Below are positions 4,311 through 39,911 of a stretch of DNA of 64,000 nucleotides, in pieces. Below the pieces are notes generated by a model that saw only the letters and a program-made list of their open reading frames with translations, was not told the DNA's origin and ran no database searches. Position 1 is the first letter of the stretch, and every line of letters begins with the position of its first letter. The DNA is from Candidatus Wolframiiraptor sinensis (GTDB taxonomy: Archaea > Thermoproteota > Nitrososphaeria_A > Caldarchaeales > Wolframiiraptoraceae): positions 1 through 64,000 of the forward strand of contig JALNKA010000001.1 of the NCBI GenBank assembly GCA_023261815.1, written 5' to 3'. Made by a program: the position numbers and the translations under genes.

Positions 4311-4332
4311 TGTGCGTTATGGCATATCTTGC

Positions 4333-4371
4333 ATGAACGGTGGCTGTCTTTGGCTCGGAATCCCATGCTGA
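4333..4371 (+). CDS. uORF MNGGCLWLGIPC overlapping the trpE 5' end (putative Trp-sensing leader / +1 frameshift cassette)
   Basis: ATG AAC GGT GGC TGT CTT TGG CTC GGA ATC CCA TGC TGA read directly; the +1 frame at CTT-TGG is the TrpE frame. Confidence 0.55.
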   Translation: MNGGCLWLGIPC

Positions 4372-24325: not shown

Positions 24326-25139
24326 GATCTTGGAGAAGCTCGCAGATCTGAGGCTCGCGATAGTTGGAGCTGGCGGGATGGCGAGAGTCCTAGCTAGGAT
24401 ATTCAGGGGTAGGATCTCGGAGATCGCGATAATATCTAGGAGCCCCGAGAAGGCTAGAAGGCTTTCGAGGATGCTGGGGGTAAGCTACTCGACAATGGAG
24501 TCCATCGGAGAATATGATGCCGTTATCTTGACCACGCCATCCCAATATCTTGCCGAGGCTGTTGAGAGGATCGCACCGCACCTCAGGGAGGGCGCGCTGC
24601 TCATGGACATATCATCCGTCAAGCTCGGGGTAGTCGAGAAGGTTCTGAGCCTCATTCCGAGCGGCGTGGATTATCTGAGCATTCACCCGCTCTTCGGGCC
24701 GGCGGCCAGGAAGCTCGCGGGCAACCGTGTGATACTTATACCCGTGAGAGGCTCATCCCGCATCGAGACCATTAAGATGATATTCGAGGATGCCGGACTG
24801 AGGGTCGTATTCTCGACGCCGGAGAAGCACGATGAGATCATGGCATACGTGCAGGTCGCCCATCACCTCTCATATCTCGCTCTAGCCCTCACGCTTTACG
24901 GCGCCGGGCCCGATATCTTGGAAGACTATGCGACTAGGTCTCTTAGAAAAACCATGAGCATGCTAAAGATGCTCCATGGAAACCTGAGAGTGATAAGGGA
25001 GATAGCGGAGTCGAATCGCTATGCCGGGAGGGCTGCCGAGGCGCTGAAAACATCGATAGACGAGCTCGCTCGAGGTGGAGACGATGTTTGGCGCAGGGTC
25101 GAGGAGGCGCTGAGAATCCTGCCAGCGAAGGCGACTTAA
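24300..25139 (+). CDS. tyrA: Prephenate/arogenate dehydrogenase
   Basis: IVGAGGM, DISSVK, HPLFGP, HDEIMAYVQ. Confidence 0.9.
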   Translation: MDHMRSSGEILEKLADLRLAIVGAGGMARVLARIFRGRISEIAIISRSPEKARRLSRMLGVSYSTMESIGEYDAVILTTPSQYLAEAVERIAPHLREGALLMDISSVKLGVVEKVLSLIPSGVDYLSIHPLFGPAARKLAGNRVILIPVRGSSRIETIKMIFEDAGLRVVFSTPEKHDEIMAYVQVAHHLSYLALALTLYGAGPDILEDYATRSLRKTMSMLKMLHGNLRVIREIAESNRYAGRAAEALKTSIDELARGGDDVWRRVEEALRILPAKAT

Positions 25140-26245
25140 TTTCTCTGCCTCGTAAGGACGGGTGGAATTAATCCTGCTCGCATCGCGTGATCCGCCAATA
25201 CTATCGCCATCATGGCCTCCACCACCACGACGGCTCTGGGAACTATGCATGGATCATGCCTACCCCGAATCCTCAGCCTCGCCTCCTTGAGATCCCTGAG
25301 ATCAACGGTCTTCTGCTCGAGCGCTATCGAGCTCGGCGGCTTGAAGGCGACCCTGATAACTATGGGCATCCCGGTCGAGATCCCGCCGATAACGCCGCCA
25401 GCATCATTCTTCTCCGAGATTATTCTCCCATCCCTGATGATCAGCGGATCGTTGTGCTGTGAGCCGGTCATCCTAGCGGCCGCGAAGCCCGCCCCGAACT
25501 CAACCCCCCTGGCGCCGGGAATAGCCATCATCGCCTTCGCTAAGTCGGCGTCAAGCGCGTCGAATACGGGCTCCCCGAGGCCTATCGGGACATTCACCGC
25601 GATGCACTCCACCACTCCGCCAACGCTATCTCCCCTCTCCCTAGCTTCCATTATCCTCTCCCTCATCCTCTCAGCGGCCTCCGGAGTCGGAGCCCTGACA
25701 TCATTCCCGTACCTGTTTCTCTCAGCATCATCTAGAGTAAAGTCTTCAGCTCTCACGCCGCCGATCTCGAGCGAGTAGCCGATGATCTTGATCCCGAGCG
25801 CTTCTCGCAGAAGCTTCTTCGCGACCGCTCCCGCCATGACGAATCCCGCCGTTATTCTTCCGGAAAACCTCCCGCCGCCGCGATAATCGTTGAACCCCCC
25901 ATACTTGACGTGGGCGTAGTAATCGGCGTGGCCCGGTCTCGGCATATACCTGATCTCAGCGTAATCCTCGCTCCTCACATCCTTATTCCAGGCGAGCATG
26001 CATATCGGTGCGCCGGTCGTATATCCCTCGAAGACGCCCGAGAGTATCTCGACCACATCCTCCTCCCTCCTCTCAGTCGAGATGATCGCGTTCGAGGGCC
26101 TACGGAGATCGAGCTCGCGCTGAATATCCTCTTCCCGGAGGCTTAGCCCGGCGGGGCAGCCATCCACCACGGCTCCGACGCATCTTCCATGGCTCTCGCC
26201 GAAGCTCAAGACCATGAATCTCTCGCCGATGATATTGCCCCTCAG
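25136..26245 (-). CDS. aroC: Chorismate synthase (probable CTG start)
   Basis: GNIIG..FGESHG, RPGHAD, GGGRFSGR, FKPPSSI, GRHDPCI; CTG at 26245 overlaps the aroA stop. Confidence 0.96.
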   Translation of the reverse strand: MRGNIIGERFMVLSFGESHGRCVGAVVDGCPAGLSLREEDIQRELDLRRPSNAIISTERREEDVVEILSGVFEGYTTGAPICMLAWNKDVRSEDYAEIRYMPRPGHADYYAHVKYGGFNDYRGGGRFSGRITAGFVMAGAVAKKLLREALGIKIIGYSLEIGGVRAEDFTLDDAERNRYGNDVRAPTPEAAERMRERIMEARERGDSVGGVVECIAVNVPIGLGEPVFDALDADLAKAMMAIPGARGVEFGAGFAAARMTGSQHNDPLIIRDGRIISEKNDAGGVIGGISTGMPIVIRVAFKPPSSIALEQKTVDLRDLKEARLRIRGRHDPCIVPRAVVVVEAMMAIVLADHAMRAGLIPPVLTRQRN

Positions 26246-27534
26246 CCTTTCATCACCTCCGCATTCAGCCCTAGGCTCCTCGCGTGCTCGAGGAACTGCG
26301 GGTAAGATACCTCGGCGACCTCCGGGTCCATTATTGCGCATCCTTTTTCCGTGGAGGCAGCGAGCATCGCCAGCGCCATGAATATCCTGTGATCGCCGTG
26401 GGGGTCGAGAATGCATCCGCCCTCAATCCTGCTCCTACCGCGGATTCTCAGGCCATCTGGAAGCGGCTCCACATCGACGCCGAGCTTGGCGAGCTCGCGG
26501 GCCATAACAGTGATCCTATCGCTCTCCTTGAACCTTGCATGCGCCACGCCCTTCAAAACCACCTCCTCGGAGCACTTGGCGCCCATGCAGGCCATTACCG
26601 GGAGGAGATCCGGCGAGTCCCTCAAATCGAATTCTCCGCCGCATATTCCTCCGCCATCAACTCTGACCGCGTCCTCCGAGATCTCGACGCGGCATCCAAG
26701 CTCTCTCAGGAAGGCGATTATCGCGGCATCAGCCTGAGGCAAATCCAGGCTCAGATTCCTCACGATTATGCTTCCGCCGGTCAAGCATGCTCCGGCCATG
26801 AGGAAGGCTGCTGAGCCGAAGTCTCCCGGAACCTTGAACTCGCATGGCCTGCCGCGCTGCCCCCCCTCGACCTCGAAAAGGCGATAATCCTCCCGCTCAA
26901 CCCTAAACCCGAACCTCGCGAGAACCTCTAGGCTCGCGTCAATATATGGCCTCGACACGGGCTCGCCCTCAACCATTATCCTCGCGCCCCTCCTAGATCT
27001 CGTAGATGCGTAGATTAAGGCTGAGATGAACTGGGATGAGACCTCGCCCATTATCCTCGCCTCGCCTCCCTCCATCCCGCCGCCCCTAACTATAATCGGA
27101 GCCGTTCCATCGAGCTTGCTCGACCAGCACTCGACGCCGAGCATCCTAAGCGCCCTCAAAAGAGGCTCCATAGGCCTCCTTCTAATCGAGTCGTCTCCCG
27201 TCAGTATCGTGTAGCCCGCGGGAGCATGGGCCGAGATCGCCGTGAAAAGCCGGAGAGTCGTCCCGGAGTTCTCGACATCGATGACGTTATCCGGGGTCCT
27301 GAATGCTCCGCCCTTGACCGAGACCTGGCCTTCACGTTCCTCGATCTCCGCGCCTAGGAGAATGCAGGCCCTCTTAGTCGCGTTCGTGTCGCGGGACTCG
27401 AGGGGGTTGATTATCCTGCTCGCGCCATCTGAGAGGAGGGCGGCCGCGTAGGCCCTATGAGTATATGGCTTGCTCGGAGGGGCCTCGACCTCGCCTCTAA
27501 GCATCGATGGCCTCACAAGAATAATTCTGCTCAT
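26242..27534 (-). CDS. aroA: EPSP synthase
   Basis: PPSKPYTHRA, NSGTTLR, SSQFISAL, KESDRI, DHRI, SYPQF. Confidence 0.97.
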   Translation of the reverse strand: MSRIILVRPSMLRGEVEAPPSKPYTHRAYAAALLSDGASRIINPLESRDTNATKRACILLGAEIEEREGQVSVKGGAFRTPDNVIDVENSGTTLRLFTAISAHAPAGYTILTGDDSIRRRPMEPLLRALRMLGVECWSSKLDGTAPIIVRGGGMEGGEARIMGEVSSQFISALIYASTRSRRGARIMVEGEPVSRPYIDASLEVLARFGFRVEREDYRLFEVEGGQRGRPCEFKVPGDFGSAAFLMAGACLTGGSIIVRNLSLDLPQADAAIIAFLRELGCRVEISEDAVRVDGGGICGGEFDLRDSPDLLPVMACMGAKCSEEVVLKGVAHARFKESDRITVMARELAKLGVDVEPLPDGLRIRGRSRIEGGCILDPHGDHRIFMALAMLAASTEKGCAIMDPEVAEVSYPQFLEHARSLGLNAEVMKG

Positions 27535-28394
27535 TCGAGCGCCTCCCAGCCCGCCTCAGAATTATTAACCCCGCATACAAGAATATCCCCATAATCCCTC
27601 AAAGCATTTCGAACGCTCTCGGCTCTCCCTGGCCTAGTGATCGCGGCGATCGCGGGTCCGGTTCCGGATACCCCGGCAGCGAGGGCTCCAGCTCTAACAG
27701 CATCGAGGATCGGCGATGGATCAAGATCTAGGGCGGAAGCTATTGCCAGCCCATTCACGATCATCGCGTCCCAGAATTTTTCCTGAAGCGCGAGCTTGGC
27801 CGCCTTGAGGCAGACATCCTTGACAGCGCGGAGTTTCTCAACATCCACGGACCCGGTGTAGATCTTCCTCTCCGGCACAGCGATTAACACCATCACATCC
27901 TCCGGGGCCATCTTTCTCAGTAGAACTTTCTTGGAGGCGTTATCCGTGATATTTATCCCGCCGAAAAAGCATGTGTAAGCATCATCATATGCGCCCGTGA
28001 TCGTTACGCCGGCCCTGATCGAGGCCTCGACGGCGAGCCGCACAACTTCATCGCCATCGCAATCCAATCCAAGAAGCCTCGCGACCGCCAGGGCCACGGC
28101 ATCCGACGCGGCGCTCGAGCTCTTAAGCCCCCGGCCTATCGGAATATTTGACCTAGTCCTTACCCGGAGGCCGATATCGCTTCTTCCAGCTTTCTGGAGA
28201 ACTGTTCTCGCGGTCTCTATTACCAGCCTTGGATCCTCCCCGCCCGGTATCTCCGCCTCAATTCTCCCGGGCTCATCACTGATCAGCGCCTCGGCCTCGG
28301 TCCATAGATCTACTCCGATAGCACCGCCGATCCATGTTGGGATGGCATTCAGGATGCTCACCGCGCCGTGAACTATGGCTCTAGCGCCCCTCAT
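27531..28394 (-). CDS. aroK: Archaeal GHMP-family shikimate kinase
   Basis: IPIGRGLKSSSA, TITGAYDDA, GVSGTGP. Confidence 0.96.
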   Translation of the reverse strand: MRGARAIVHGAVSILNAIPTWIGGAIGVDLWTEAEALISDEPGRIEAEIPGGEDPRLVIETARTVLQKAGRSDIGLRVRTRSNIPIGRGLKSSSAASDAVALAVARLLGLDCDGDEVVRLAVEASIRAGVTITGAYDDAYTCFFGGINITDNASKKVLLRKMAPEDVMVLIAVPERKIYTGSVDVEKLRAVKDVCLKAAKLALQEKFWDAMIVNGLAIASALDLDPSPILDAVRAGALAAGVSGTGPAIAAITRPGRAESVRNALRDYGDILVCGVNNSEAGWEALE

Positions 28395-29244
28395 CCTCCA
28401 CGTATCCCTCCAGCGCCTCGATAGCCGCCCTCCTCATCACCTCGATCGGCGGATCTACTCCGGTCCATAGCCTGAACGCCTCAGCCCCCTGATAAACTAG
28501 GACATCAACCCCGGATACGATAATCGCTCCAGCTCTCTCCGCCTCTTCGAGAAGCCTAGTCTTAGGGGGATTATACACGAGGTCCAAGACTATCGTGCCC
28601 CTGCGCATCTCCTCCGATGTAAGCGGCGTGGCGCCCGTATCTGGATGCATGCCAATTGACGTCGCGTTTATTATGATGCCGCATTCAACTGCCTTACACC
28701 TACCCTCCTCGAGACTTATAGCATCCGCCGATACCCCGAGCGGGCGAGCCCAATCCGCCAAGGCCATGCCCCTCTCGAGAGTCCTATTCGCTATCAGGAT
28801 TCTCCTGAAACCCAGGTCCATGAGCGCGGCAACCGCGGCTCTAGCCGCACCTCCGGCGCCGATCACGAGAGCAGGCTTATTGATGGGGAGTTCCCGGCCC
28901 CCCAACGCCCGCCTAATACCATAAACGTCCGTGTTGTAACCCCTTAGAAGGCCGCGATCATTAACGACGGTATTGACGGCGCCCGCCCTCTCAGCCGAAT
29001 GATCAAGCTCATCGAGCAGTTTCATGACAGCAACCTTGTGGGGTATCGTAACATTGAAGCCCGCGGCGCCGAGAGCCCTAAGCCCCGAAACAGCTTCATC
29101 AAGCTTCTCCGGAGGGACATCGAACGCGACGTAGACGTAGTTTAGGCCCAGGGCTCTGAAAGCGGCATTATGCATCTGCGGCGAGACAGAGTGTCCGATC
29201 GGGTGGCCTATGAGGCAGCAGAGCCTAGTCAAGGCGTTGATCAA
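28381..29244 (-). CDS. aroE: Shikimate dehydrogenase
   Basis: IGHPIGHSVSPQMHN, NVTIPHK, GAVNT, NTD, GAGGAARA; TTG start overlaps the aroD stop. Confidence 0.97.
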   Translation of the reverse strand: MINALTRLCCLIGHPIGHSVSPQMHNAAFRALGLNYVYVAFDVPPEKLDEAVSGLRALGAAGFNVTIPHKVAVMKLLDELDHSAERAGAVNTVVNDRGLLRGYNTDVYGIRRALGGRELPINKPALVIGAGGAARAAVAALMDLGFRRILIANRTLERGMALADWARPLGVSADAISLEEGRCKAVECGIIINATSIGMHPDTGATPLTSEEMRRGTIVLDLVYNPPKTRLLEEAERAGAIIVSGVDVLVYQGAEAFRLWTGVDPPIEVMRRAAIEALEGYVEDEGR

Positions 29245-29936
29245 CGCGGCATCACCAGATCTAAGATCCGCTTGAAGTGCGTAATGTTCAGCTGGCCCGG
29301 AGCAACCTCCTCCCCGGGAAGGCACGCGTAGGCTATCGGCGATCCCAGCATCGGCGCGAGTATTCTCGTAACCGCGCCAGCCTCACCCATGGCAAACGCT
29401 ATTAGCCTTTCGGCGGGCAGATCTCCTCTCCGATAAAGCCCGAGTATCCTGAGATTATCATCTATGCTTCGCGACGTTGGCACGATCTTCACCAGATCGC
29501 CGTATCTCAGGGATTCGAGAGCTCTCGAGGTGAGCTCATCCTCGCTTGGAGTTCCGGAGAAATCGTGAGATGATATTATCAGCTTTGAGCGCCTCCTGAG
29601 CTCGGCGGAGACTTCCACGATGCTCCCGGTTCTGAGCTCGAGATCCACGTATGCGGGCCTCGACTCGGATAACCTTCTCAGGATCTCGATCCTGCGCTGC
29701 TCGCCTCCTCCATATCTGCCCCCCTCCCAACTGGGCCTAAGAGTTATAACGATCCTGTCGGCGAAGCTCGAGATGAGATCCTCTAGGCGGCTCGCATTAA
29801 GCTCGCGCAGGAAGTCGAGCCTAAGCTCGACCAAATCTCCCCCTAGGCTAAGCGCCCGCTCAATCTTTTCCTCGAGCTCAGCCTCATCCCTACCCATTAC
29901 GCTGACGCATATCAGCGGCTTCAATGACCCCGTCAC
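29241..29936 (-). CDS. aroD: Type I 3-dehydroquinate dehydratase
   Basis: VELRLD, TLRPSWEGG, SSHDF, MGEAG, APGQ. Confidence 0.96.
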   Translation of the reverse strand: MTGSLKPLICVSVMGRDEAELEEKIERALSLGGDLVELRLDFLRELNASRLEDLISSFADRIVITLRPSWEGGRYGGGEQRRIEILRRLSESRPAYVDLELRTGSIVEVSAELRRRSKLIISSHDFSGTPSEDELTSRALESLRYGDLVKIVPTSRSIDDNLRILGLYRRGDLPAERLIAFAMGEAGAVTRILAPMLGSPIAYACLPGEEVAPGQLNITHFKRILDLVMPR

Positions 29937-30967
29937 CTCTCGATTATGAACTCGTCCACGGCTCTCCCAAAGTGCCTTGCCCTAGCCCTGGGCACGTGCG
30001 CGAGGATCCTATCACCCGGCTTGATCTCGGTCACCGAGATCGGCGCCTCATCGGGAGAGAGAAGAGCTATGGTCTCCGCGTTCTGGACTATCACGGAGCC
30101 CTCGATATCATTAAGCCTGATCCTCACGAGGCGTAATGGCCTCCTCTCTATCTTCACCCTGCCTATCGACGCGATCCTAACGCCCCTCTTCGAGACTACT
30201 AGGACCCTGTCGCCGGCCCTCAGCTCCGAGAGGTATCTCGTGGAGCCGTCGGGCGCGAGAGTGTATGAGTGGATAGCGCCTGCATTAACCCTGAAAGGCC
30301 TCGGCGCGGTGAGAGCAGACCCGAGGCTCTCATTATGGATGAGGGTGAGCAGGCTCGATGTGCTTCCAACAAGCATTCCCTCGCCGACGCTGAGAATCGA
30401 CGTCGTGTCTATGCAGGCTCTCTCGCCAAGCCCGATGTCCCTCACCTCGACTACCTCAGCTTCATCGAGCTCGAGCCTGCTGGGAGCCGAGACCTGATCT
30501 ATGACTAGGTCGACCTCATCCGGGCTGCTGACCGCGACGAGGAGGCCATCAACGCCCTTCTCCAAGATTCCTGAGAGCGTTTCGACCTCATGGGGCGATG
30601 CAGCGGCTATGATCCTCGTTCCATATGGCGCTAGGTCGGCTATCAGGTTCTCGAGCGCTATTATCTTCAAGTCCTCAGCCCTCACTATGATGCTTCTCAC
30701 ACCCATCCTCGCCGCGGCGATCATCCTCTCATAGTCCTCCGGCCCCCTCAGCACCATCTCCGGAATCGTTTTCTCAGAGATGCTCGATGGATCCCTGACG
30801 ATCCTCCAGTCCGCAGACTCAGACTCGTGATAAATCTCGATCTTGCCTCGAAGCTTCTCCGGGAGCTTCTCGGGATCGATGTAGAACGCTCTAATGCCCC
30901 TCGCGACCGCCCTCTCGAGTATCCTCTCATCCGGCTTGATCGGCGCGATGATTATCTCCTTCCTCAT
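29933..30967 (-). CDS. aroB': 3-dehydroquinate synthase II (archaeal AroB')
   Basis: IIALENLIA, ACIDT, RPFRVNAGAIHSY, GRVKIERRPL, QNAETI, RHFG. Confidence 0.95.
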   Translation of the reverse strand: MRKEIIIAPIKPDERILERAVARGIRAFYIDPEKLPEKLRGKIEIYHESESADWRIVRDPSSISEKTIPEMVLRGPEDYERMIAAARMGVRSIIVRAEDLKIIALENLIADLAPYGTRIIAAASPHEVETLSGILEKGVDGLLVAVSSPDEVDLVIDQVSAPSRLELDEAEVVEVRDIGLGERACIDTTSILSVGEGMLVGSTSSLLTLIHNESLGSALTAPRPFRVNAGAIHSYTLAPDGSTRYLSELRAGDRVLVVSKRGVRIASIGRVKIERRPLRLVRIRLNDIEGSVIVQNAETIALLSPDEAPISVTEIKPGDRILAHVPRARARHFGRAVDEFIIER

Positions 30968-31758
30968 CGATTCTCCCTCAATATCCTCATCGCTTCCTCG
31001 ATGCTTCTGCCCTCGATCACGACGGCTCTAAGAGCTCTCGCGATCGCATCGGGCTTCTCATGCTGGAAGACGTTTCTCCCAAATGTGACACCAGCCCCGC
31101 CGGCCTCCACAACTGCCTTCGCGAGCTCCAAGACCTTCCGATCATCATCCATCTTCGGCCCTCCCGCGGCGACAACCGGAACCGGACAGCTCTCTGTTAT
31201 CACCCGTATATCATCTGGGTTGAAGGATGGCATCGGGACCTTTACTATGTCTGCGCCGAGCTCCGCGCCAACCCTCGCGACATGAGCAATAACCTGCGGG
31301 TCATTCGGGTCCTTGATGTTCTCGCCGCGCGGATACATCATCGCTATCAATGGAACTCCCCACGCATCGCACTCATCAGCTATCGCGCCGAGCTTCCTTA
31401 ACATATCCTGCTCATCCTTGTTCCCGATGTTTATGTGGACGGAGACGGCGTCGGCTCCAAGCCTTATGGCCTCCTCGACCGAGGCAACCCAGACCTTCCA
31501 GTTCGGCGAAGTGGAGAGGCTGGTGCTGGCCGAGGCATGCATTATCAGCCCTGTTCTCGGAGGCTTATCCAAGCTCTTGATGATCCCCTTATGAACCAGT
31601 ATGGCCGTCACGCCAGCGGACTCCAGCCTCATTATCGTCTCCCGTATCCTGTCAATGCCCTTCATCGGCCCGGAGCTAACCCCATGATCCATCGGCACGC
31701 ACAGCATTCTACCGGACTCCATCATCCTGCTCAACCTAACCTGCTTACCCCAAACCAT
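30964..31758 (-). CDS. aroA': 2-amino-3,7-dideoxy-D-threo-hept-6-ulosonate synthase (AroA', class I aldolase family)
   Basis: VPMDHG, HKG, GADAVSVH, MMYPRG, ELGADIVK, AGGPK, GRNVFQH; GGAGGTGA SD before ATG31758. Confidence 0.93.
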   Translation of the reverse strand: MVWGKQVRLSRMMESGRMLCVPMDHGVSSGPMKGIDRIRETIMRLESAGVTAILVHKGIIKSLDKPPRTGLIMHASASTSLSTSPNWKVWVASVEEAIRLGADAVSVHINIGNKDEQDMLRKLGAIADECDAWGVPLIAMMYPRGENIKDPNDPQVIAHVARVGAELGADIVKVPMPSFNPDDIRVITESCPVPVVAAGGPKMDDDRKVLELAKAVVEAGGAGVTFGRNVFQHEKPDAIARALRAVVIEGRSIEEAMRILRENR

Positions 31759-31857
31759 GCCCATCACCTCCCAAACCATACACTATGGACGCGTCAAGCC
31801 CAGGCCAATACTTCGGGAAATCTAGAGAATGGACCCCCAACATGCAAAACACCCTCC

Positions 31858-31900
31858 AAAGAAGAGAAATCTTGCGCGGGGCCCTGGCTCATGCCAGGGC
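31858..31900 (-). terminator. Hairpin plus U-rich tract between the leader peptide and aroA'
   Basis: GCCCUGGC-AUGA-GCCAGGGC perfect 8-bp stem with the leader stop in the loop; AUUUCUCUUCUUU 10 nt downstream. Confidence 0.55.
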
Positions 31901-31978
31901 AAAATAGCAAAAGCCAAAATACCAGTAGCTCCAGAGGCCGCCGAAGCCGCTTAAGCGAGCACGTCCACCGCCGTTCAT
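31889..31978 (-). CDS. Aromatic-rich leader peptide of the aro operon, MNGGGRARLSGFGGLWSYWYFGFCYFALA
   Basis: 29 codons read directly, 9 aromatic (4F, 3Y, 2W); SD-like GAGGCG upstream; below the ORF track cutoff. Confidence 0.75.
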   Translation of the reverse strand: MNGGGRARLSGFGGLWSYWYFGFCYFALA

Positions 31979-32020
31979 CACGATCGCCTCTGGAGCGCTT
32001 GGATAATCGTCTCGCGGACT

Positions 32021-32036
32021 GTATATAAGATTTGCT
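32021..32036 (-). promoter_or_regulatory. BRE/TATA promoter of the aro leader/operon
   Basis: Minus strand gcaaatcTTATATAc; predicted TSS near 31997-32000. Confidence 0.6.
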
Positions 32037-32095
32037 CTAAATGCTCCCGGGCATGCTAAGCTTATTTTTCGGCTTCCACCTAATGTTGAAAGGCT

Positions 32096-34639
32096 ATGAG
32101 GCTCAGCGCGATCACGATCACCTTATGTCTCCTGATAGTGGTCTCTTCTCTCTCAGCTCTCCAGCTCATGATAACTTCCTCAAGCGCTCAGCCAACATGG
32201 AGCTTCTCGATCACGCTTTTCCCGGCGGAGCTTTACATGGGCGAGTGGGGGAGGCTGAAGGCGAACATAACGAACACGGACTGCTCCGCGAGGCTGCCTA
32301 AACCCTATGAGGCGAAGTTCGACGACATCCCGGAGCGAACTCTCAAATCAATCCTAGCGAGAGCGAGAGATGAATGAGAGCGGCTGGATAACGGATTACG
32401 ATCTCAGGATAGAGGGTGCGCACGGCTTCGGGGGCCAAGTTTACTTCGACGCGAAGCTGAAGATAATTGGAGCCTGCTCTGGGAAATCCATAAAGCTGTA
32501 TTATGCTCAGCTCTGGTTTCCGTGGAAGAAGTATCCCGGGAGAGACTGGGCTTTCAGGGCAGACGCTAACGTGGAGCTCAAGGCGTTCAACCCTATAGAC
32601 TACATCCTTAAGGGGTTTAGCCCCGGATCATCGATAGTGCTCGAGTTCGAGCTCTTCATCCCGCCCGACATATACCCGGAGGAGCGCTTTCTCAAGCCCT
32701 TCATGGACTTGAGGGTCCACTACCCGGGATGGATAGATTACACTCTCGAGGCTTATCCAACTCGTGGGCCCTTCGAGATCCAGCCTTACAGGAGCTTCAA
32801 CCTCACCGTGACGGATTATGATGGTATGAACCCCCCATCGCCGGCGCGAGAGTCGTGATCAGGAGGCTCATCCACCGTTATGATGTCCGCGAGTACGTCA
32901 CGCCGGAAAATGGAACGATAAGAATACACAGGCTTAAGGAGGATGATTACGAGGTGAGAGTATACTGGAATAACAGCATCTTCCTGCAGGAGTCGCCGCT
33001 CGTGCACATGGAGCATCACACCGCCTACGATCTCGCGTCCGAGGGCATCAGGACTCTTCTCTTCAACGTCGAGGTTAGGGCGCTGGATCTGAAAGAGAGG
33101 GCTCTAAATGGCGCGAGAATCGCTTTGGACGGCGTCGAGGTCATCGCGGAGAACGGCTACGCGCTATACCAGCTCGTCCCAAACGGCAATCACTCCCTCC
33201 AAGCATACTGGATGGGAATCAAGCTGCTGGATGAGTGGGTGTGGATCGGATATCATCCGACAATCCCCCCTGAGATCAAGGAACCGAAGCTAGTGCTAAA
33301 AACTTCCTGTGGATGATCTGCTGGTTCAGGCGATTGATAGCGGCGGAATGCCGCTCGCTGCTAACTTCACGGTATCAGATCCCCAGGGAGTGCTGCCGGA
33401 TCTACTATACTGTAGCTCAGGCCTCCTGAACATAACCCAGCTGGTTGTGGGCGATTATCGGGTGCGAGCATTAAACTGCTCTCAAGCCTTCAAGACGTGC
33501 GCGGAGGCATCGGGCATCTTCCAGCCCGGCCAGCTCATGAAGCTTCAGCTACCGCTTCACTCGATAACCCTCCACCTCTACTCTAGGGGCGGCGTGGAGC
33601 TCGGAAACGCCTTGGTGATATTGGGCGGCGTCGAGGCGAGAGCTGACCAGTGGGGATACGCGATCTTCCCGGGGATCCCGGAGGGAGAGTACGAGGTCAG
33701 GATACTGTGGAATAACGTCGAGGTATATGATGGCCGAATAATGGTTTCGGAATCGGGCTCATGGGATATCATCGCGGACGTGTACGATGTCGGGCTGGAG
33801 CTCAGGACGACTGATGGAAGGCCCTTCTCAGCCTACTGGATCCTCGTGGACCCATCAGGTCATAGGCATGAGATGAGGCGCCCATCTAGCATAATCTCAG
33901 CCAGGCTTATCCCACGCGGCCCATGCAATCTCACGGTTATCGACGAGCGGAACCTGACGCTGATCTCCTCGGTCATGAGCGTTGAGGAGCTCGCGAGCAT
34001 GCGAGAGCTCAAGCTACCAATAGGAGACATGGTGATCAGGGTGCTCTGGAGCGATGATGCGCCCATTGCTAATGCTAGGATCGTGCTAGTGGGCCCGCAA
34101 GCCTGAGGAGCGAGGGACTCACTGATGCTCAGGGCATGATATCCCTGGGCCTAGCCCCATTAGCTAATTACAGCCTGAGAGTCTATTATCCGAGAACATC
34201 GCTCGTCTTATTCGCTGGAAATGTGACGTTCGTGGGCGACGTGGTCGAGGTCAGGGCTGGGCGGACGGGCATCATGGTCAAGGTCGTTGATGCGCTCGGG
34301 AACCCGCTTCCAGGCGCGGCGGTAAGGCTCCATGTCTCGGACATCATTTTGGGTGAGGAGAGATCCGGCTTGGATGGGGTTGTGGCCTTCTCGGGGATAC
34401 CACATCTCGGCGCATATCAGCTCGAGGTCAAGCATGGGCCGCTGATCGTCAATAGGATAATCCGCCCAGGAGAGAACGCGATCATAGAGCTGGAGGCCAT
34501 AAACCTACTCGGGCTGACCATGTACATTCAAGATCTCATGGCGCTTCTGCCGGCCATAGCCGTGGTGATAGCGATCACGATAATTATAATTGTCTTGAGG
34601 AGAAGGTTCAGAGCCTCCGCGAGGGCGGAGATCCGCTAG
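32096..34639 (+). pseudogene. Large secreted/membrane-anchored beta-sandwich repeat protein (carboxypeptidase-regulatory-like repeats), split into five ORFs
   Basis: Signal peptide in the first ORF; repeated motifs (VVDALGNPLPGAAVRL, YEVRVYWN, YEVRILWN); C-terminal TM plus RRR; breaks near 32370, 32835, 33300, 34105. Confidence 0.75.
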
Positions 34640-35738
34640 CCTCAGCGGCTTCTATTATCTCTATCCCGAGACTTCTCGCGAACTCCATCTCGGTGGCGGT
34701 AGGCTTATCGCTCGTCACGAGCATCACCCTGCTAAGCTTAAGGTCGCTTCTCGCGACGCCGAGCCTAACCAAGACCTGAGTTAACGGCTCGCCGAAGGAT
34801 GATGTTATCGCTATTATCTCATCCCCCTTCTTGGCGGCGGCGTCGAACCTGTGGATGACGCCGGACTCGCCGACCAGGCTTGCCGGCCTCTCGACCTCAT
34901 ATCCACGTTGCCTCAAGATCTCTATCTCCCTATTGACAGCGCTGATCACTTTTTCATACTCGGCAAGCATTTCTTTCGACGACTCGATTCTCTTGAACGG
35001 CTTAATTTCCATGGTCTGCTCATCGTAGAGGGAGCCGCATGACCCGCACTTGAACGCGATGTTCGGTTCCTCGAACTCCGTGCCGCAGTCCGGGCACCTA
35101 TACCTCCTGTGGTAAACCTCTATGTTCTCCGATCCCCCGCATCGGGGGCAAGCTAGCCCAAGCGCCGTTCTGAAGCTCGACTCCGCACCGATATATCCGC
35201 ATGTATGCCTATAATATCTCGTCTCCTTAACCCTAAAGGAGCCGCAATTCCTGCATGACGTTAATGCTACTTGGATGCATGATCCGCAGATTGGGCAGGC
35301 GACCGCGGAGAACTCCCTCTCAGTCTCTAAGATGAGCCTCTTATCAATGAGCCTCCTGAGCACGCGCTGAGCATCCTTCTCCGAGACGCCCGCGAATTCC
35401 GGATAATAGCCCCCCTCCTTGCTTCCCGGCATCATAAGGGGCCTAAGAGCCCCCTTAATCATCAATGATTCTATGACTCTCGCCTCAAGCTTCGCTAGCT
35501 CCTCATCAGAAAGCTCTCCCACGCCTTTTTCCGGAGGCGCCAGCCTCCCTTCCTCAGTGGCTTCCTCAAGCTCTGAGATCACCCTTATTGAATCCAGCTC
35601 CTCCTTCGAGATATTCCCGGCCTTCCTTCTCTTCTCCCTCTTCCTCAGAGCCAGTATGAAGGCCGCCGCGATACAAGCAGCTATTATCGCCAGGACCTCG
35701 AGCCTTTGCAGGATCTGGAGTATATCGGCTGGGCTCAT
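34608..35738 (-). CDS. Membrane-anchored TackOD1-like multi-zinc-ribbon protein with C-terminal restriction-endonuclease-like fold
   Basis: TM helix; CPICGS, CRNCGS, HTCGY, CPRC, CPDC, CGSCG; GESGVIHRFDA motif. Confidence 0.7.
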   Translation of the reverse strand: MSPADILQILQRLEVLAIIAACIAAAFILALRKREKRRKAGNISKEELDSIRVISELEEATEEGRLAPPEKGVGELSDEELAKLEARVIESLMIKGALRPLMMPGSKEGGYYPEFAGVSEKDAQRVLRRLIDKRLILETEREFSAVACPICGSCIQVALTSCRNCGSFRVKETRYYRHTCGYIGAESSFRTALGLACPRCGGSENIEVYHRRYRCPDCGTEFEEPNIAFKCGSCGSLYDEQTMEIKPFKRIESSKEMLAEYEKVISAVNREIEILRQRGYEVERPASLVGESGVIHRFDAAAKKGDEIIAITSSFGEPLTQVLVRLGVARSDLKLSRVMLVTSDKPTATEMEFARSLGIEIIEAAEASGSPPSRRL

Positions 35739-35751
35739 CCTCTTCTACAGC

Positions 35752-37149
35752 TCACCAATAGGGCTCTAGAGCTAAGTATATCAACGTAGCGGCGATCACG
35801 CCGACCCCAGCCCTCCAAGTGCTGGCCACAGTGTGATCGCAGAGCTTCGAGACCGCTAGCCCGAGGATCAGGGAGAGGATGATGCTTATCGGGAGTAGGA
35901 GCGCTCCAACCCCCTCGAGGGTGACCCCGCCGAAGAGGGGGGCCGGCTGAATGAGCATCCCACCTCCAGCCATCGAGGTGGCATATCTCGCTGAGAACTC
36001 CTTGAGGGGCCTGGTTATCGCGAAGCTCATTATCAGGATCAGGGAGCCGGCTGTGATGCTGATTACCTCGTAGAACCTGAGCCTGCTTCTGAGATCCCGG
36101 TAAGCGTGATAGAGCCTTTGAGCAGTCCTGGCCACAATCTCGAGGGCTTTCCCGCCTGCGCCGCTCTCCCTCACGACCTTGATCGTCGAGAGGACGAGGT
36201 GGAGCTGCCTGCTCCTTGGATTCGCCTCGATCCCCAGCGAGACCCTCCTAACCTGCTCCACGACCCTACCATCCCTAACGAGCTGGAATGATCTCTCGAC
36301 GGGGTAGCCGAGCTGGAGCTTCGTGGCCAGGCCCTGGGCCAATAGGTGCCCGCCCTCCATCTCCGAGATCGCCTTCCTAACCTCGTGGCTCGCCGGGATC
36401 GAGAGAGCTACCAGCCCAGCTCCTATGCCCAAGTATATCATCGGATTGGCGAGCGAGAACCCCCTCACCGGGATCGAGATGGCGATTGCAGCGGCTATCA
36501 GTGCGAGCTGTGCTGGAAGTATTCGCATAACCCTAGGCGAGAGGATTACTATCGGGACCCCCTGAAGCGCCACTGATGCTGTGTATGTTGTGATCGAAGA
36601 TAGTAGGGCTATGGGGAAGATGAGCTCCAGGCTGCCTCCGAAGAATGCTGTGAACGAGATAAAGAGGGGGATAAGTATCATGATCATTAGGCTTGCCTCC
36701 GCCAGGTTCTCAGCGCTCTCAGCCTTCTTCCTAGCGCGCTCGGCGGCATATTCCTCCTCATCCCAGAGGAGGACCTGGACCCTCGTGGCTGGGTCGAAGC
36801 CCGTGAAAGCCTCCTCGCCGATAGACCTGAGCACGCTCGTAACCCTCGCGCTCGGAGTCCTATAATCGAGCAGTGCCCCCGATAGATCGCCCCTCCTCTC
36901 AGCCTCCCTAATTATTCTCCCGGCTTCCTGGTGGAATGCTGGCATGAGCGCTTTCTCGGCCGCAGCGGCCTCGAGGGCCTTCCTTAAGCTCCATCCGGCC
37001 TCAAGCCTCGCATAAAGATAGCTCAGGAATATCGGTAGCTCCTCCTCGAGCCTAGCAGCCCTCTCCTTTCTCAGCGCTACCGGGAGCAGGGCCAGGAGAA
37101 CTATCAGCGCTATTATCATCAGCGTGTTTATGTTGAGGAGGAAGCTCAC
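35752..37149 (-). CDS. Type IV pilus platform membrane protein (TadC/FlaJ-like)
   Basis: LEEELPIFLSYLYARLEAGWSLRKALE; duplicated T2SSF domains with multiple TMs; follows the ATPase. Confidence 0.85.
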   Translation of the reverse strand: MSFLLNINTLMIIALIVLLALLPVALRKERAARLEEELPIFLSYLYARLEAGWSLRKALEAAAAEKALMPAFHQEAGRIIREAERRGDLSGALLDYRTPSARVTSVLRSIGEEAFTGFDPATRVQVLLWDEEEYAAERARKKAESAENLAEASLMIMILIPLFISFTAFFGGSLELIFPIALLSSITTYTASVALQGVPIVILSPRVMRILPAQLALIAAAIAISIPVRGFSLANPMIYLGIGAGLVALSIPASHEVRKAISEMEGGHLLAQGLATKLQLGYPVERSFQLVRDGRVVEQVRRVSLGIEANPRSRQLHLVLSTIKVVRESGAGGKALEIVARTAQRLYHAYRDLRSRLRFYEVISITAGSLILIMSFAITRPLKEFSARYATSMAGGGMLIQPAPLFGGVTLEGVGALLLPISIILSLILGLAVSKLCDHTVASTWRAGVGVIAATLIYLALEPYW

Positions 37150-37156
37150 GAGCTGA

Positions 37157-38494
37157 TCAAGCAGTGGCCACCACCTCCTCCCTCCTAGCCTGAGCTCTCA
37201 ACTGCTCAGCCCTCCTCCTGACCTCGAGAGCAGCCAGCTCGTAGGGCTCAAGGCCGCGGTAGGATATGGCGAGCTTCTGGCCGATCTTCTCAGGAAGCTT
37301 AAACTTCCCGCTCTCATAATCATAGATGAGCTCCCACTTTCCCGAGATGTTCTCGTAGACCTCCTTTACCCGCCGCCTGCCATCCGGCATTCTGACTATG
37401 AAGACGGCATAATCTATCAAGGCAACCTGATCTTGTCTCAGGTTCATTGGATGGCTCGTGAGCCTCTTCACCATGTGATCTAGGTCGTCCGTGTGCAGCG
37501 TCGTAGCGGTCCCATGTCCGACCGATGCCGCCGTTATCATATCCTGAACCTCCTCCGCCCTAGCCTCCCCCACCGCGATTATCGTGGGCCTATGCCTCAG
37601 CGCGGCCTTAAGGAGCTGGGTCAAGGGTATGGCGGTCTGCCTCGCGGCCGGGCTCGTTGGAAGCCTGGCGTAGAGGGGCAACCATCCCGGGTGATCCTTG
37701 AGATTTATCTCCGGATGCTCTTCGATTGTCACGATCTTGTAGTTTTTAGGAAGCTGGAGTAGGAGGGAGTTGAGGAGAGTGGTCTTGCCGCTTCCAGTCA
37801 GCCCAGCGATGATTACGTTGCACTTGAGTTCCACGGCGAGCCAGAGCGCCGCCGCAACCTCGGACCTCAGGGTCCCAAGCTTAACCAGCCTCGCGAGGCT
37901 ATAGGGGCTCCTCGGAAACTTCCTAACAGTTATGCTCGAGTGGAGGGAGACCTCCCCCCTCAAAACTCCCGCAACTCGATCGAAGCTCGGCGTGAGTATC
38001 TCGACGACGGGGCTCGCGGGCGTTATAGATCCACCAGATCTCTCGATCACAAGCTTGACCAGCTTATCGAGCTCTTCATCCGACTCCACGACGACGTTGC
38101 TCTCGATCCACTCATAGTGAGGCGCGAGTCTATGAATCAGCCTGACGGGGCCCGGCATCGTTATCGTGAAATCCTCTATCTGATCATCGTACATGAAGAC
38201 TTGAAGCTTCGAGAATCCCCTAAGCTCCCTGAGAAGATAATATCGGAGGGCAACGACCTCGGAGGAGCTGAGCCTCCTCGAATACTTCTTGACAAGCTCT
38301 TCGGGATTGGTTCCCCTCTTCACGTACTCGTCCATGGCCTGGTCGAGAGACTTTTTGACGCCATCCGTCAGGGCGGGCTCCTCAACCTCGTAGAGCAGGC
38401 CATTATCCCGCTGCCTGAGCCTAACAACAGCATCCCCAACATGATATTCCGCGAAGATTCTTGAGACACCTTTCTCGCCCCTCAACTCAGCCAT
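37157..38494 (-). CDS. Type IV pilus assembly ATPase (VirB11/TadA/FlaI family)
   Basis: TVRKF, GLTGSGKTT, VTIEE, ALRHRP..IAVGEAR, GH..TTLH. Confidence 0.93.
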   Translation of the reverse strand: MAELRGEKGVSRIFAEYHVGDAVVRLRQRDNGLLYEVEEPALTDGVKKSLDQAMDEYVKRGTNPEELVKKYSRRLSSSEVVALRYYLLRELRGFSKLQVFMYDDQIEDFTITMPGPVRLIHRLAPHYEWIESNVVVESDEELDKLVKLVIERSGGSITPASPVVEILTPSFDRVAGVLRGEVSLHSSITVRKFPRSPYSLARLVKLGTLRSEVAAALWLAVELKCNVIIAGLTGSGKTTLLNSLLLQLPKNYKIVTIEEHPEINLKDHPGWLPLYARLPTSPAARQTAIPLTQLLKAALRHRPTIIAVGEARAEEVQDMITAASVGHGTATTLHTDDLDHMVKRLTSHPMNLRQDQVALIDYAVFIVRMPDGRRRVKEVYENISGKWELIYDYESGKFKLPEKIGQKLAISYRGLEPYELAALEVRRRAEQLRAQARREEVVATA

Positions 38495-38590
38495 TCAAGA
38501 CACCTCCTAGGGAAAAGTAAGATAAGAAAGCGCGTATAATTGAGTAATGGGCATACAGCAGCTCCAATATACCCGCAAATTCCCCAGATA

Positions 38591-39004
38591 TCAACCAAGC
38601 CTTACCTCCATCCAAGCACCAGTATCAAATCTCAGTAGAATGGACTGCGCCGATCCGGAAACCCTTACAACCTCGTAGGTTCTCGGTTCTATCCTGCATT
38701 CAGGGTCCTTCTGCCCATTTTCGTTGAAGCAGCTGCATCCAGCTCCATCGGGGCATTTAAGGTGATTTCCTCCGACCCAGGCCTCGAGCACGATTATGTG
38801 ATCCGAGTGAGGATTGTAGAGGTATATCTCGGCAGTGCCGGAGCTGCTAAACGCGGCTATTAACGTCGGCCTCAACCATGGTCTAACGCTGGGCGGCGAT
38901 ACTACCGGAAGATAATACACCATGATGAACGCCACGGCGACAGATATGCTAAGAAGGATGAGTGCCGAGAGAAGTTCACTTAAGCCGCAGCGACCCCGCC
39001 TCAC
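38591..39004 (-). CDS. Archaeal type IV pilin (class III signal peptide)
   Basis: MRRGRCG/LSELLSALILLSISVAVAFI PibD-type cleavage site and hydrophobic helix. Confidence 0.8.
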   Translation of the reverse strand: MRRGRCGLSELLSALILLSISVAVAFIMVYYLPVVSPPSVRPWLRPTLIAAFSSSGTAEIYLYNPHSDHIIVLEAWVGGNHLKCPDGAGCSCFNENGQKDPECRIEPRTYEVVRVSGSAQSILLRFDTGAWMEVRLG

Positions 39005-39153
39005 ACCAACCCTGAGAATATCTCTCTCTACTTATTGTTATTTAACTCATCGCTGAGCCATCCCAAGATGATCCATGCCCACATTCCGGCGCATGAGGAA
39101 GGTTCTTAGAAGGGTTACGAGCTTATAGGGGTGGCATTCCGGTGATCGGGAGC

Positions 39154-39591: not shown

Positions 39592-39593
39592 CT

Positions 39594-39878: not shown

Positions 39879-39911
39879 CCGTATTGAAACCTTCAGCTCG
39901 AAGTATTAAAT

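What the first reader, a model, noticed from the sequence alone, without database searches (positions are those of the whole stretch)
31858..32000. Trp/Tyr/Phe-rich leader peptide with attenuator-like architecture upstream of the archaeal shikimate operon
Seen in sequence: between the TATA box and aroA' lies a 29-codon ORF in which 8 of residues 16-26 (WSYWYFGFCYF) are aromatic, covering all three end products of the pathway. Its stop sits in the loop of a perfect 8-bp GC stem, followed by AUUUCUCUUCUUU. Established: this is the layout of bacterial trpL/pheL attenuators, and archaea couple transcription to translation and terminate at U-rich tracts. Inference: ribosome stalling on aromatic codons controls read-through into the seven-gene aro operon. 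Leader-peptide attenuation is poorly documented in archaea.
Basis: partly seen in the sequence, partly recalled or inferred. Interest (0 to 1): 0.93.

Follow-up and report, generated by a model that had tools for sequence, protein, structure and literature searches.

The report
Aromatic leader peptide, archaeal shikimate operon
A tiny gene made almost entirely of Phe, Tyr and Trp codons, flanked by two conserved RNA hairpins, sits in front of the aromatic amino-acid pathway genes in a group of hot-spring archaea and looks like a ribosome-based sensor of a kind so far described only in bacteria.

Summary
On the minus strand a 29-codon ORF (31978-31889) has 8 aromatic residues in 11, and its TGA lies in the loop of a perfect 8-bp GC stem. 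The U-rich run comes only after a 10-nt spacer. The seven-gene aro operon follows.

It is not chance: only 2 of 52,244 six-frame open frames in this genome are as aromatic. The ORF recurs before the aro operon in 21 Wolframiiraptoraceae genomes of three genera, and in another sequence form in Calditenuaceae.

- All 21 keep an SD, an in-frame start, 23-32 codons and a stop (TAA/TAG/TGA) at loop position 2.
- Two helices are conserved: the SD arm with the Trp-Ser codons, and the stop hairpin, which shows compensatory changes.
- The unpaired linker between them is 113/136 aromatic codons.
- Tyr-Phe always abuts the stop hairpin.

Best reading: a cis-acting, ribosome-sensed leader peptide. The output step is unresolved. 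I found no antiterminator pairing, no bacterial-type terminator and no consistent SD-unmasking switch. My literature searches turned up no archaeal precedent.

Verdict: a new variant of a known kind, high interest, needs experiment.

The parts
32022..32028 (-). TATA-like box TTATATA. The transcription start is predicted, not measured, about 24 nt downstream near 31998, so helix 1 would sit at the very 5' end of the mRNA.
   Evidence: Sequence. TTTATATA/TTTAATTA is conserved at the same place in the 9 and 21 aligned genomes.
31986..31996 (-). Helix 1, 5' arm GCUCCAGAGGC. It contains the Shine-Dalgarno-like GAGG of the leader ORF.
   Evidence: RNAalifold on 21 sequences predicts it. A start codon lies 2-9 nt after the arm in 21/21.
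31889..31978 (-). Leader ORF (ORF1), 29 codons plus TGA: MNGGGRARLSGFGGLWSYWYFGFCYFALA.
   Evidence: A homologous ORF of 23-32 codons occurs in 21/21 Wolframiiraptoraceae leaders. The N-terminus varies; the C-terminus is aromatic.
31928..31938 (-). Helix 1, 3' arm GCCUCUGGAGC (codons Gly-Leu-Trp-Ser 14-17).
   Evidence: 11 pairs, 96.5% of cells paired, mostly G-U wobble changes and 1 pair with a two-sided change.
31901..31927 (-). Unpaired aromatic linker, YWYFGFCYF. It ends in the invariant Tyr(UAU)-Phe(UUU) pair that abuts helix 2.
   Evidence: 113 of 136 linker codons are aromatic across the 21 leaders. TATTT is invariant and the next T and G are near-invariant.
31881..31900 (-). Helix 2: GCCCUGGC, loop AUGA, GCCAGGGC. 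The 5' arm is the Ala-Leu-Ala codons and the stop codon is at loop position 2.
   Evidence: 8 pairs, 99.4% of cells paired, 2 pairs with compensatory changes (U-A to C-G twice, G-C to A-U twice); 12 different loops, each with an in-frame stop (TAA 13, TAG 4, TGA 4).
31858..31880 (-). Spacer CCCGCGCAAG followed by the pyrimidine/U-rich tract AUUUCUCUUCUUU. This is a candidate pause or termination tract; its function is not shown.
   Evidence: The sequence varies but stays U/C-rich in the 21 aligned leaders. Not flagged as a bacterial-type terminator.
31851..31857 (-). SD2 (GGAGGGU), conserved, 7 nt before ATG2.
   Evidence: It aligns with the SD of aspartokinase in genera g2 and g5.
31745..31843 (-). 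ORF2, 32 codons. It starts where aspartokinase starts in sister genera and ends at a TAA inside aroA' codons 4-5. Probably a remnant initiation region translationally coupled to aroA'.
   Evidence: open in 11/11 Wolframiiraptor genomes (29-44 codons). The ATG2-to-aroA' distance is 1 mod 3 in 8 of 9, over 5 different lengths.
25136..31758 (-). aro operon: aroA' (ADH synthase, conserved start 31758), aroB', aroD, aroE, aroK (archaeal type), aroA, aroC.
   Evidence: NCBIfam hits. The start comes from the alignment.

Best explanation
ORF1 is a translated, cis-acting leader peptide. It lets the ribosome report the supply of charged aromatic tRNAs, above all Tyr and Phe, to the aro operon.

Shown:
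- The ORF, its SD, its start and its stop are conserved as a reading frame across three genera, and in a second sequence form in another family.
- The codons outside the two helices are almost purely aromatic.
- Two helices are conserved. Helix 1 pairs the leader's SD arm with the Trp-Ser codons. Helix 2 holds the stop codon in its loop.
- The last Tyr-Phe codons directly abut helix 2.

Inferred mechanism:
1. One pioneer ribosome loads on the nascent RNA before helix 1 can close.
2. If aromatic aminoacyl-tRNAs are short, the ribosome dwells on the linker. In the short leaders, helix arm plus 12-nt linker plus helix arm span 31 nt, about one footprint. This keeps helix 2 (and helix 1) open, so RNA polymerase passes the pyrimidine/U-rich tract and ribosomes load at SD2.
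3. If supply is good, the ribosome reaches the stop and leaves. Both helices snap shut. Helix 2 plus the U-rich tract ends or stalls transcription before SD2, and helix 1 blocks further leader translation.

The sensing half is well supported. The output half (premature termination) is my preferred guess only.
For: Rarity: 2 of 52,244 frames are this aromatic.

Synteny: the ORF precedes aroA' in 9/9 Wolframiiraptor loci with upstream sequence, plus 2 more genomes. In genera g2 and g5 it precedes aspartokinase-asd-aroA'. In Calditenuaceae it precedes asd-aroA'. It therefore tracks the operon's first gene, whichever gene that is.

Specificity: the motif was found once per genome in 19 of 76 Caldarchaeales genomes, all in one family. 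The reversed-pattern control gave 2 hits.

Reading-frame evidence: 21/21 have a start 2-9 nt after the SD arm. Lengths are 23-32 codons, so they differ by whole codons. All three stop codons are used, always at loop position 2, across 12 different loops.

Composition: 113/136 aromatic in the linker, 43/105 just upstream of helix 1, 6/150 in the N-terminal part. The proteome is at 7.7%.

Codon choice: TAT-TTT abuts helix 2 in 20/21 and TAT-TTC in 1. TTT is only 18% of Phe codons in this genome's long ORFs.

Structure: RNAalifold finds exactly the two helices. 97.7% of cells are paired, against 29-57% when the partner is slid. Helix 2 has 2 compensatory pairs.

Independent replicate: 12 Calditenuaceae leaders have different sequence but the same logic. 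The leader's initiation region pairs with the Tyr-codon segment, aromatic codons abut a hairpin around the stop, and 12 of 23 predicted pairs show two-sided changes.

RNA: one metatranscriptome contig of a 97.6%-identical strain runs unbroken from 31974 through ORF1, ORF2 and aroA' into aroB'. That strain carries C24Y, one more aromatic residue.

Passages of the review PMC13675443: archaeal RNA polymerase terminates at oligo-T, and a hairpin can enhance termination.
Against: There is no direct evidence of translation, of a 3' end at the U-rich tract, or of regulation.

No conserved alternative (antiterminator) pairing exists. The only other complementarities are 5-7 bp and G-U rich.

The hairpin is about 10 nt from the U-rich run here, with a variable tract in the other genomes, and is not a bacterial-type terminator. 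The U-run is weak in several genomes and missing in Calditenuaceae g6 and one g9 subgroup.

Genes of this genome show no T-run excess at their 3' ends in a crude test: T5 11%, A5 11%.

Geometry: a ribosome stalled at the earlier aromatic codons, including every Trp codon, would not reach helix 2. The hairpin would then form and, on this model, would terminate. That is the wrong direction for starvation.

Some residues are constrained by RNA pairing and not only by coding: the Trp-Ser and Ala-Leu-Ala codons here, and the Tyr codons of the Terraquivivens variant, which lie in a palindromic hairpin.

The RNA contig cannot show ends or levels, and DNA may be present in that library.
Confidence: 0.5

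Rival explanations
1. Same sensor, translational output. The anti-SD-like 3' arm of helix 1 (CCUCUGG), or the 3' arm of helix 2, can pair with SD2. Ribosome position on the leader would then decide whether SD2 is free, as in the mycobacterial polycysteine sORFs.
For: The helix-1 3' arm is complementary to SD2 in 91% of cells (7 bp).

In one Terraquivivens leader the minimum-energy fold pairs that arm with SD2 instead of the SD1 arm.

SD2 and its start were kept as ORF2 even after aspartokinase and asd were lost from the operon.

Calditenuaceae leaders carry several SD-like and anti-SD-like segments and lack a U-run in g6.

Precedent: stalled ribosomes block RBS-sequestering structures (10.1101/834739, abstract).
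Against: Folding with ribosome masks gave no consistent change in SD2 accessibility over the 21 leaders: means 0.28, 0.21 and 0.23-0.31 at 37 C.

In g2 and g5, masking the helix-2 5' arm lowers SD2 accessibility at 70 C in 9 of 10. That is the wrong direction.

Helix 1 (10-11 bp) should outcompete a 7-bp G-U-rich long-range pairing at hot-spring temperatures.
Confidence: 0.17
2. The region is a structured 5'-UTR RNA: a protein- or ligand-binding element, a 5'-end stabiliser or a roadblock against 5'-to-3' decay. The ORF is not translated, or its translation is irrelevant.
For: The two helices are the most conserved features.

Parts of the 'peptide' are dictated by helix arms.

AGAGGCG recurs 25-35 nt after a TATA box in distant Nitrososphaeria aro leaders, as an operator or RNA motif might.

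The Terraquivivens Tyr codons sit in a palindrome.
Against: An RNA-only model does not predict any of the following:
- an in-frame start at SD distance in 21/21;
- length changes in whole codons only;
- a stop kept through TAA/TAG/TGA switches in 12 different loops;
- 83% aromatic codons in the unpaired linker with almost no Leu or Ile, which a merely U-rich linker read in random frames would give.

There is no Rfam match: best E 0.42, 18 bits against a threshold of 47.
Confidence: 0.12
3. ORF1 encodes a functional small hydrophobic peptide that acts in trans, for example a membrane peptide, and is merely co-transcribed with the aro genes.
For: The aromatic, hydrophobic C-terminus is conserved. 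Leader peptides with trans roles exist in bacteria (peTrpL; abstracts listed).
Against: The N-terminus varies freely in length and sequence.

The hydrophobic stretch is about 15 residues in this window, which is short for a membrane span.

The Calditenuaceae version ends in FWEG or FFGP and is interrupted by Thr and Ala.

The only constant partner is the aro operon's first gene.

There is no Pfam hit.
Confidence: 0.05
4. A chance ORF in a long intergenic region.
For: Short ORFs abound: 162 ORFs of 20 aa or more lie in 12 kb.
Against: See: rarity, conservation in at least 33 leaders of two families, and frame maintenance.
Confidence: 0.01

Closest known systems
Bacterial ribosome-mediated transcription attenuators (E. 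coli trpL, pheL, hisL; described from my own knowledge and from the abstracts of PMC1183508 and PMC3082878 listed)
   Same: A short SD-led ORF lies in the 5' leader of a biosynthetic operon, with a dense cluster of codons for the pathway's end products. A GC-rich hairpin and a U-rich stretch stand before the first gene. The leader's initiation site is sequestered by pairing; this detail for trpL is recalled, not checked.
   Different: - Archaeal host.
- Three amino acids are sensed at once, for the common pathway.
- No antiterminator alternative.
- The regulatory-codon segment pairs upstream with the leader's own SD, not downstream.
- The stop codon lies in the hairpin loop.
- The U-run is offset by about 10 nt in this window.
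- A second, coupled short ORF follows.
E. coli pyrBI leader
   Same: The leader ORF runs into the attenuator hairpin, so a ribosome close behind the polymerase physically prevents the hairpin. No antiterminator is needed.
   Different: There the signal is UTP-dependent polymerase pausing, not hungry codons. On that geometry a lagging ribosome means termination, which here would be the wrong direction for starvation. This is the main unresolved point.
Polycysteine leaderless sORFs of mycobacteria (10.1101/834739; abstract and outline read)
   Same: An sORF rich in one class of codon stands as first cistron of the cognate pathway operon, and the ribosome acts as sensor. The Calditenuaceae g6 leader ATG lies about 25 nt after its TATA box, so it may also be leaderless.
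   Different: There, stalled ribosomes block a structure that sequesters the next gene's RBS. I found no such consistent pairing here.
TnaC-type arrest peptides (recalled)
   Same: A short leader peptide with key aromatic residues, with the decision taken at or near its stop codon.
   Different: TnaC senses free Trp and induces a catabolic operon through Rho. No arrest motif is shared between the two archaeal families beyond aromatic richness.

Membership tests
Leader-peptide (ribosome-mediated) attenuator, broad sense | A short ORF with its own initiation signals in the 5' leader of the regulated operon | tested here: met
   SD-like GAGG and a start 2-9 nt after the arm in 21/21. The ORF lies between the TATA box and the first gene in three operon layouts.
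Leader-peptide (ribosome-mediated) attenuator, broad sense | A cluster of codons cognate to the pathway's end products, beyond chance | tested here: met
   8/11 in this window. 2 of 52,244 frames genome-wide. 113/136 in the linker against 7.7% in the proteome.
Leader-peptide (ribosome-mediated) attenuator, broad sense | The ORF is conserved as a reading frame, not merely as sequence | tested here: met
   Whole-codon length changes, variable N-termini, and a stop kept through TAA/TAG/TGA changes.
Leader-peptide (ribosome-mediated) attenuator, broad sense | The leader is translated, and expression responds to the amino acid | not testable with these tools
   The only data are an RNA contig that covers the leader and aroA'.
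Classical trpL/pheL-type transcription attenuator | An intrinsic terminator (GC hairpin immediately followed by a U-run) between the leader and the first gene | tested here: not met
   A 10-nt spacer lies between helix 2 and the U-rich tract. Not flagged by the scan. No U-run in Calditenuaceae g6.
Classical trpL/pheL-type transcription attenuator | Mutually exclusive antiterminator and terminator pairings (1:2, 2:3, 3:4) | tested here: not met
   RNAalifold gives only two independent helices. The conserved-complementarity scan finds only 5-7 bp G-U-rich alternatives.
Translational attenuation (erm/cat/polycysteine type) | The downstream RBS is sequestered by a structure that a stalled ribosome opens | tested here: inconclusive
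   The helix-1 3' arm can pair with SD2 and does so in one Terraquivivens fold. Masked folding shows no consistent opening.
Known Rfam cis-regulatory RNA | A match at the family's gathering score | tested here: not met
   best hits are 14-22 bits against thresholds of 35-72.

The most novel reading that the evidence does not exclude
Caldarchaeales, and perhaps wider Nitrososphaeria, possess a genuine ribosome-mediated attenuation system. It would be the first in Archaea, older than the split between Wolframiiraptoraceae and Calditenuaceae, and built differently from every bacterial attenuator. There is no antiterminator. The sensor codons pair with the leader's own ribosome-binding site, which would make it a single-round sensor. 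The stop codon sits in a hairpin that the paused ribosome holds open. The output then goes through archaeal termination or coupling machinery, not a bacterial intrinsic terminator.
Probability: 0.5. Interest if true: 0.9.

Novelty: new variant of a known kind. Interest (0 to 1): 0.82.

Why it matters
Leader-peptide attenuation is a textbook result of coupled transcription and translation, but it is documented only in Bacteria. Five full-text searches found no archaeal case. A 2026 review of termination signals across the domains contains neither 'attenuat' nor 'leader peptide'.

Here is a concrete locus, conserved across many genomes and carrying covariation support, in a lineage with a cultivated member (Wolframiiraptor gerlachensis; PMC9246946, abstract seen).

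It makes three open questions directly testable:
- Do archaeal ribosomes regulate RNA polymerase or FttA-type termination in cis?
- Can RNA hairpins modulate archaeal termination in vivo?
- How are archaeal amino-acid pathways feedback-controlled without bacterial-type terminators?

It also shows that such leaders can be found by a simple composition-plus-synteny scan.

Tried and rejected
Rfam scan of 31000-33000 at E up to 10: only sub-threshold noise.

SD2-unmasking model: folding 21 leaders at 37, 70 and 75 C, with ribosome masks at the initiation site, at several codons and at the stop, gave no consistent switch.

Antiterminator search: an all-against-all scan for conserved complementarity found only short G-U-rich alternatives.

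Bacterial-type terminator scan of 24000-40000: 8 sites against 9.2 expected, and helix 2 was not among them.

Genome-wide terminator signature: no T-run excess in 418 crude gene 3' flanks. I therefore could not define what a terminator looks like in this organism.

Other leader peptides in the genome: a crude scan for single-residue-rich short ORFs with an SD found nothing convincing.
- The trp operon (window 4340-10754) starts about 29 nt after its TATA box, with no leader.
- pheA-tyrA (23246-25139) has none.
- The separate aspartokinase-asd pair on contig C28 has none.

80 loci were returned and none of them is a leader homologue. The single scan was wasted on too loose a pattern.

BLAST of the Calditenuis leader within its family: 6 of 7 g9 genomes and 0 of 8 g6 genomes matched. 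g6 does carry the leader, so a BLAST negative there means nothing.

RNA runs: X22 and X23 gave nothing. In X12 nothing is laid from 31975 to 32236, and this proves nothing.

Caldarchaeaceae loci: the 13 rows looked at show no leader ORF before asd (by eye; some rows are the same genome from two collections).

Antisense ORF 31435-32028 (+) and the divergent small ORFs at 32041-33316: no Pfam family.

Supplementary files of papers were not consulted.

Full report
WHAT IS THERE

On the minus strand, between a TATA-like TTATATA (32028-32022) and the aro genes, lies ORF1: ATG 31978 to TGA 31891-31889, MNGGGRARLSGFGGLWSYWYFGFCYFALA. Residues 16-26 hold 8 aromatics of 11. The last three codons, GCC CUG GC-, form the 5' arm of a perfect 8-bp stem (31900-31893 with 31888-31881), and the stop sits in the 4-nt loop. 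A 10-nt spacer follows, and only then AUUUCUCUUCUUU (31870-31858).

Downstream are seven genes that NCBIfam names ADH synthase (aroA'), dehydroquinate synthase II, aroD, aroE, archaeal shikimate kinase, EPSP synthase and chorismate synthase. The closest named relative of aroA' is Candidatus Wolframiiraptor gerlachensis at 92%. The window therefore comes from a Wolframiiraptor (Caldarchaeales, Nitrososphaeria) genome of 1.18 Mb and 54% GC.

IS IT MORE THAN CHANCE?

In all six frames of the genome, 2 of 52,244 open frames of 11 aa or more reach 8 aromatics in 11. One of the two is ORF1. Long ORFs carry 7.7% F+Y+W.

CONSERVATION

aroA' was found in 35 of 41 related genomes.

- Wolframiiraptor: all 9 loci with upstream sequence carry a homologous short ORF at the same place. 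N-termini vary and C-termini read ...LWS(Y/F)...F(Y)YFALA.
- Motif search: a pattern for 'TGGAGC ... hairpin' occurs exactly once per genome in 19 of 76 Caldarchaeales genomes, all in one family. By genus: Wolframiiraptor 8/13 besides the window, plus 2 variants seen by the aroA' route; g2 3/3; g5 7/8; g3 0/7; g4 0/3; other families 0/41. The reversed pattern gave 2 hits.
- Genera g2 and g5 (Benthortus and Geocrenenecus are among the named records): the leader lies about 2.3 kb upstream of aroA', in front of aspartokinase-asd-aroA'.
- Calditenuaceae: a leader of different sequence (MGR..FGFTAYTYFYFWEG..W.TTYAYFFGP..) precedes asd-aroA'.
- Caldarchaeaceae: none of the 13 loci inspected has one.

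The element follows the operon's first gene, whichever gene that is.

READING-FRAME EVIDENCE (21 leaders)

- Every leader has a start (20 ATG, 1 TTG) 2-9 nt after the GAGG-containing arm.
- Lengths are 23-32 codons.
- The stop is TAA 13 times, TAG 4 times and TGA 4 times, always at loop position 2, across 12 different loop sequences of 3-5 nt.
- Aromatic codons make up 113/136 of the unpaired linker between the two helices, 43/105 of the five codons before helix 1, and 6/150 of the N-terminal remainder.
- The two codons that abut helix 2 are Tyr-Phe in 21/21: TAT in all 21, TTT in 20. TTT is only 18% of Phe codons in this genome.
- A related strain seen in an RNA library carries C24Y.

RNA STRUCTURE

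RNAalifold on the 21 leaders predicts exactly two helices and nothing else.

- Helix 1: GCUCCAGAGG(C), which holds the leader's SD and sits at the predicted 5' end of the mRNA, pairs with (G)CCUCUGGAGC, the Gly/Phe-Leu/Phe-Trp-Ser codons.
- Helix 2: the stop hairpin.

On my stated structure, 97.7% of cells pair, against 29-57% when the partner is slid by 1-3 columns. Helix 2 has two pairs with two-sided changes (U-A to C-G, G-C to A-U). Helix 1 changes mostly by wobble. These genomes are related, so the shuffle figures are only indicative: 10 of 500 shuffles reach the covariation score, and 0 of 500 reach the count of cells changed on both sides.

Twelve Calditenuaceae leaders fold differently in detail but by the same logic. 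The SD1 region pairs with a C-rich segment after the leader. The start region pairs with the Thr/Tyr-codon segment. Aromatic codons abut a hairpin around the stop. 12 of 23 predicted pairs have two-sided changes.

A SECOND SHORT ORF

After the U-rich tract come a conserved SD (GGAGGGU, 31857-31851) and ATG 31843. These align with the SD and start of aspartokinase in g2 and g5.

In Wolframiiraptor, aspartokinase and asd are gone from this locus. A distant aspartokinase (30% identity) and an asd (54%) sit on contig C28 without a leader. What remains is ORF2. It is open in 11/11 genomes (29-44 codons) and ends inside aroA' codons 4-8, or at a TGA 5 nt before the aroA' ATG in G002. The distance from ATG2 to the aroA' ATG is 1 mod 3 in 8 of 9, over five different lengths. 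Leader, hairpin, spacer and second initiation site were therefore kept as one module.

EXPRESSION

One metatranscriptome contig (1771 nt, 38 differences in 1575 nt) covers 31974 down to beyond 30400. That joins ORF1, ORF2, aroA' and aroB'. Contigs cannot show ends, strand or level, and DNA may be present in that library, so this is a weak hint of co-transcription.

MECHANISM

The sensing half, a ribosome slowed on Tyr/Phe/Trp codons, follows from the anatomy. The output half is open.

- I found no conserved antiterminator.
- The hairpin is not a bacterial-type terminator.
- The U-run is weak or absent in some lineages.
- This genome shows no T-run signature after genes.
- Masked folding gives no consistent SD2 switch.

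What the two families share is this: (i) the leader's own initiation region is closed by pairing with the sensor codons; (ii) the aromatic run ends exactly at the 5' arm of a hairpin that holds the stop.

Feature (i) implies roughly one round of leader translation per transcript. That favours a co-transcriptional decision. Feature (ii) implies that a ribosome dwelling on the last Tyr-Phe codons holds helix 2 open.

I therefore favour occlusion-type attenuation. Passages of a 2026 review record that archaeal RNA polymerase terminates at oligo-T and that a hairpin can enhance this (PMC13675443).

The weak point is geometry. Stalls at the earlier aromatic codons, including all Trp codons, would leave helix 2 free. 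On this model that would increase termination.

Rivals are translational control through competition of SD1 and SD2 for the anti-SD-like arm (precedent 10.1101/834739, abstract), a stability effect, a purely RNA-level element, and a trans-acting peptide.

COMPARISON AND NOVELTY

The element works like a bacterial leader-peptide attenuator in its sensor, but it fails two defining features of the trpL/pheL class: an adjacent intrinsic terminator and an antiterminator alternative. I file it as a new variant of a known kind.

Searches of the held library found no archaeal leader-peptide attenuator. A Haloferax small-proteome paper only remarks that 5'-UTR sORFs are 'reminiscent' of leader peptides (PMC10117724, passage). 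Subscription-only literature and supplementary files were not visible to me.

Noticed in passing
window 31745-31843 (-): ORF2 is a conserved short ORF with its own SD. It starts where aspartokinase starts in sister genera and ends inside the first codons of aroA'. It looks like the remnant of a lost aspartokinase 5' end, kept as a translational coupling device.
   Followed up: yes
L049, L061, L063, L068, L106 (first 250 nt of each); L055, L058, L060 near position 120: Distant Nitrososphaeria also carry AGAGGCG 25-35 nt after a TATA box in front of aspartokinase-asd-aroA'. It is followed by an open frame (EAI-FI...) that runs to, or into, the aspartokinase start and has aromatic residues near its end (e.g. 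..CFFFNFYY*, ..SYFLNFAY*, ..PFWVLPFLYMEG*). These genomes are AT-rich, so chance is harder to exclude. Several of the frames lack a canonical start codon.
   Followed up: partly
L055, L058, L060 (Terraquivivens), about 115-270: A variant leader, (V)RDCLFLTTGYSYYRYSETGASL. The AGAGAGGCG arm pairs with CGCCUCUCU at the ORF's 3' end next to the stop. The Tyr codons lie in a GCUAUAGC palindrome. In one of three folds the C/U-rich arm pairs with SD2 instead.
   Followed up: partly
L019, L021, L022, L023, L025, L047 (Calditenuaceae g6): The leader ATG lies about 25 nt after the TATA box, so the leader peptide may be translated from a leaderless mRNA. The leader also carries a run of Thr codons (TTTYAYFF) that pair with the start region.
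   Followed up: partly
window 4303-10754 (+): The complete trp operon (trpE at 4340 to trpA ending at 10754) starts about 29 nt after its TATA box and has no leader ORF. A divergent 122-aa ORF (4150-3782, minus strand) has no significant Pfam family (NitrOD2, E 0.04).
   Followed up: partly
window 23246-25139 (+): Chorismate mutase/prephenate dehydratase with an ACT domain, then prephenate dehydrogenase. They converge on the end of the aro operon, with 3' ends overlapping by 4 nt (25136-25139), and have no leader of their own.
   Followed up: partly
G000 contig C28 18748-21349 (+): A second aspartokinase-asd pair (30% and 54% identical to the operon-linked ones of genus g2), with an ordinary SD and promoter and no leader.
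   Followed up: partly
window 31908 and 31910: In the metatranscriptome contig of a related strain, Phe23 is TTC instead of TTT and Cys24 becomes Tyr. This brings the leader to the FYYF consensus of its congeners.
   Followed up: yes
G000 contig C10 46804-46866 (-): A short SD-led ORF, MISGQKLANRHYYYGYPFRA, turned up in the scan for residue-rich short ORFs. Its downstream gene was not identified.
   Followed up: no
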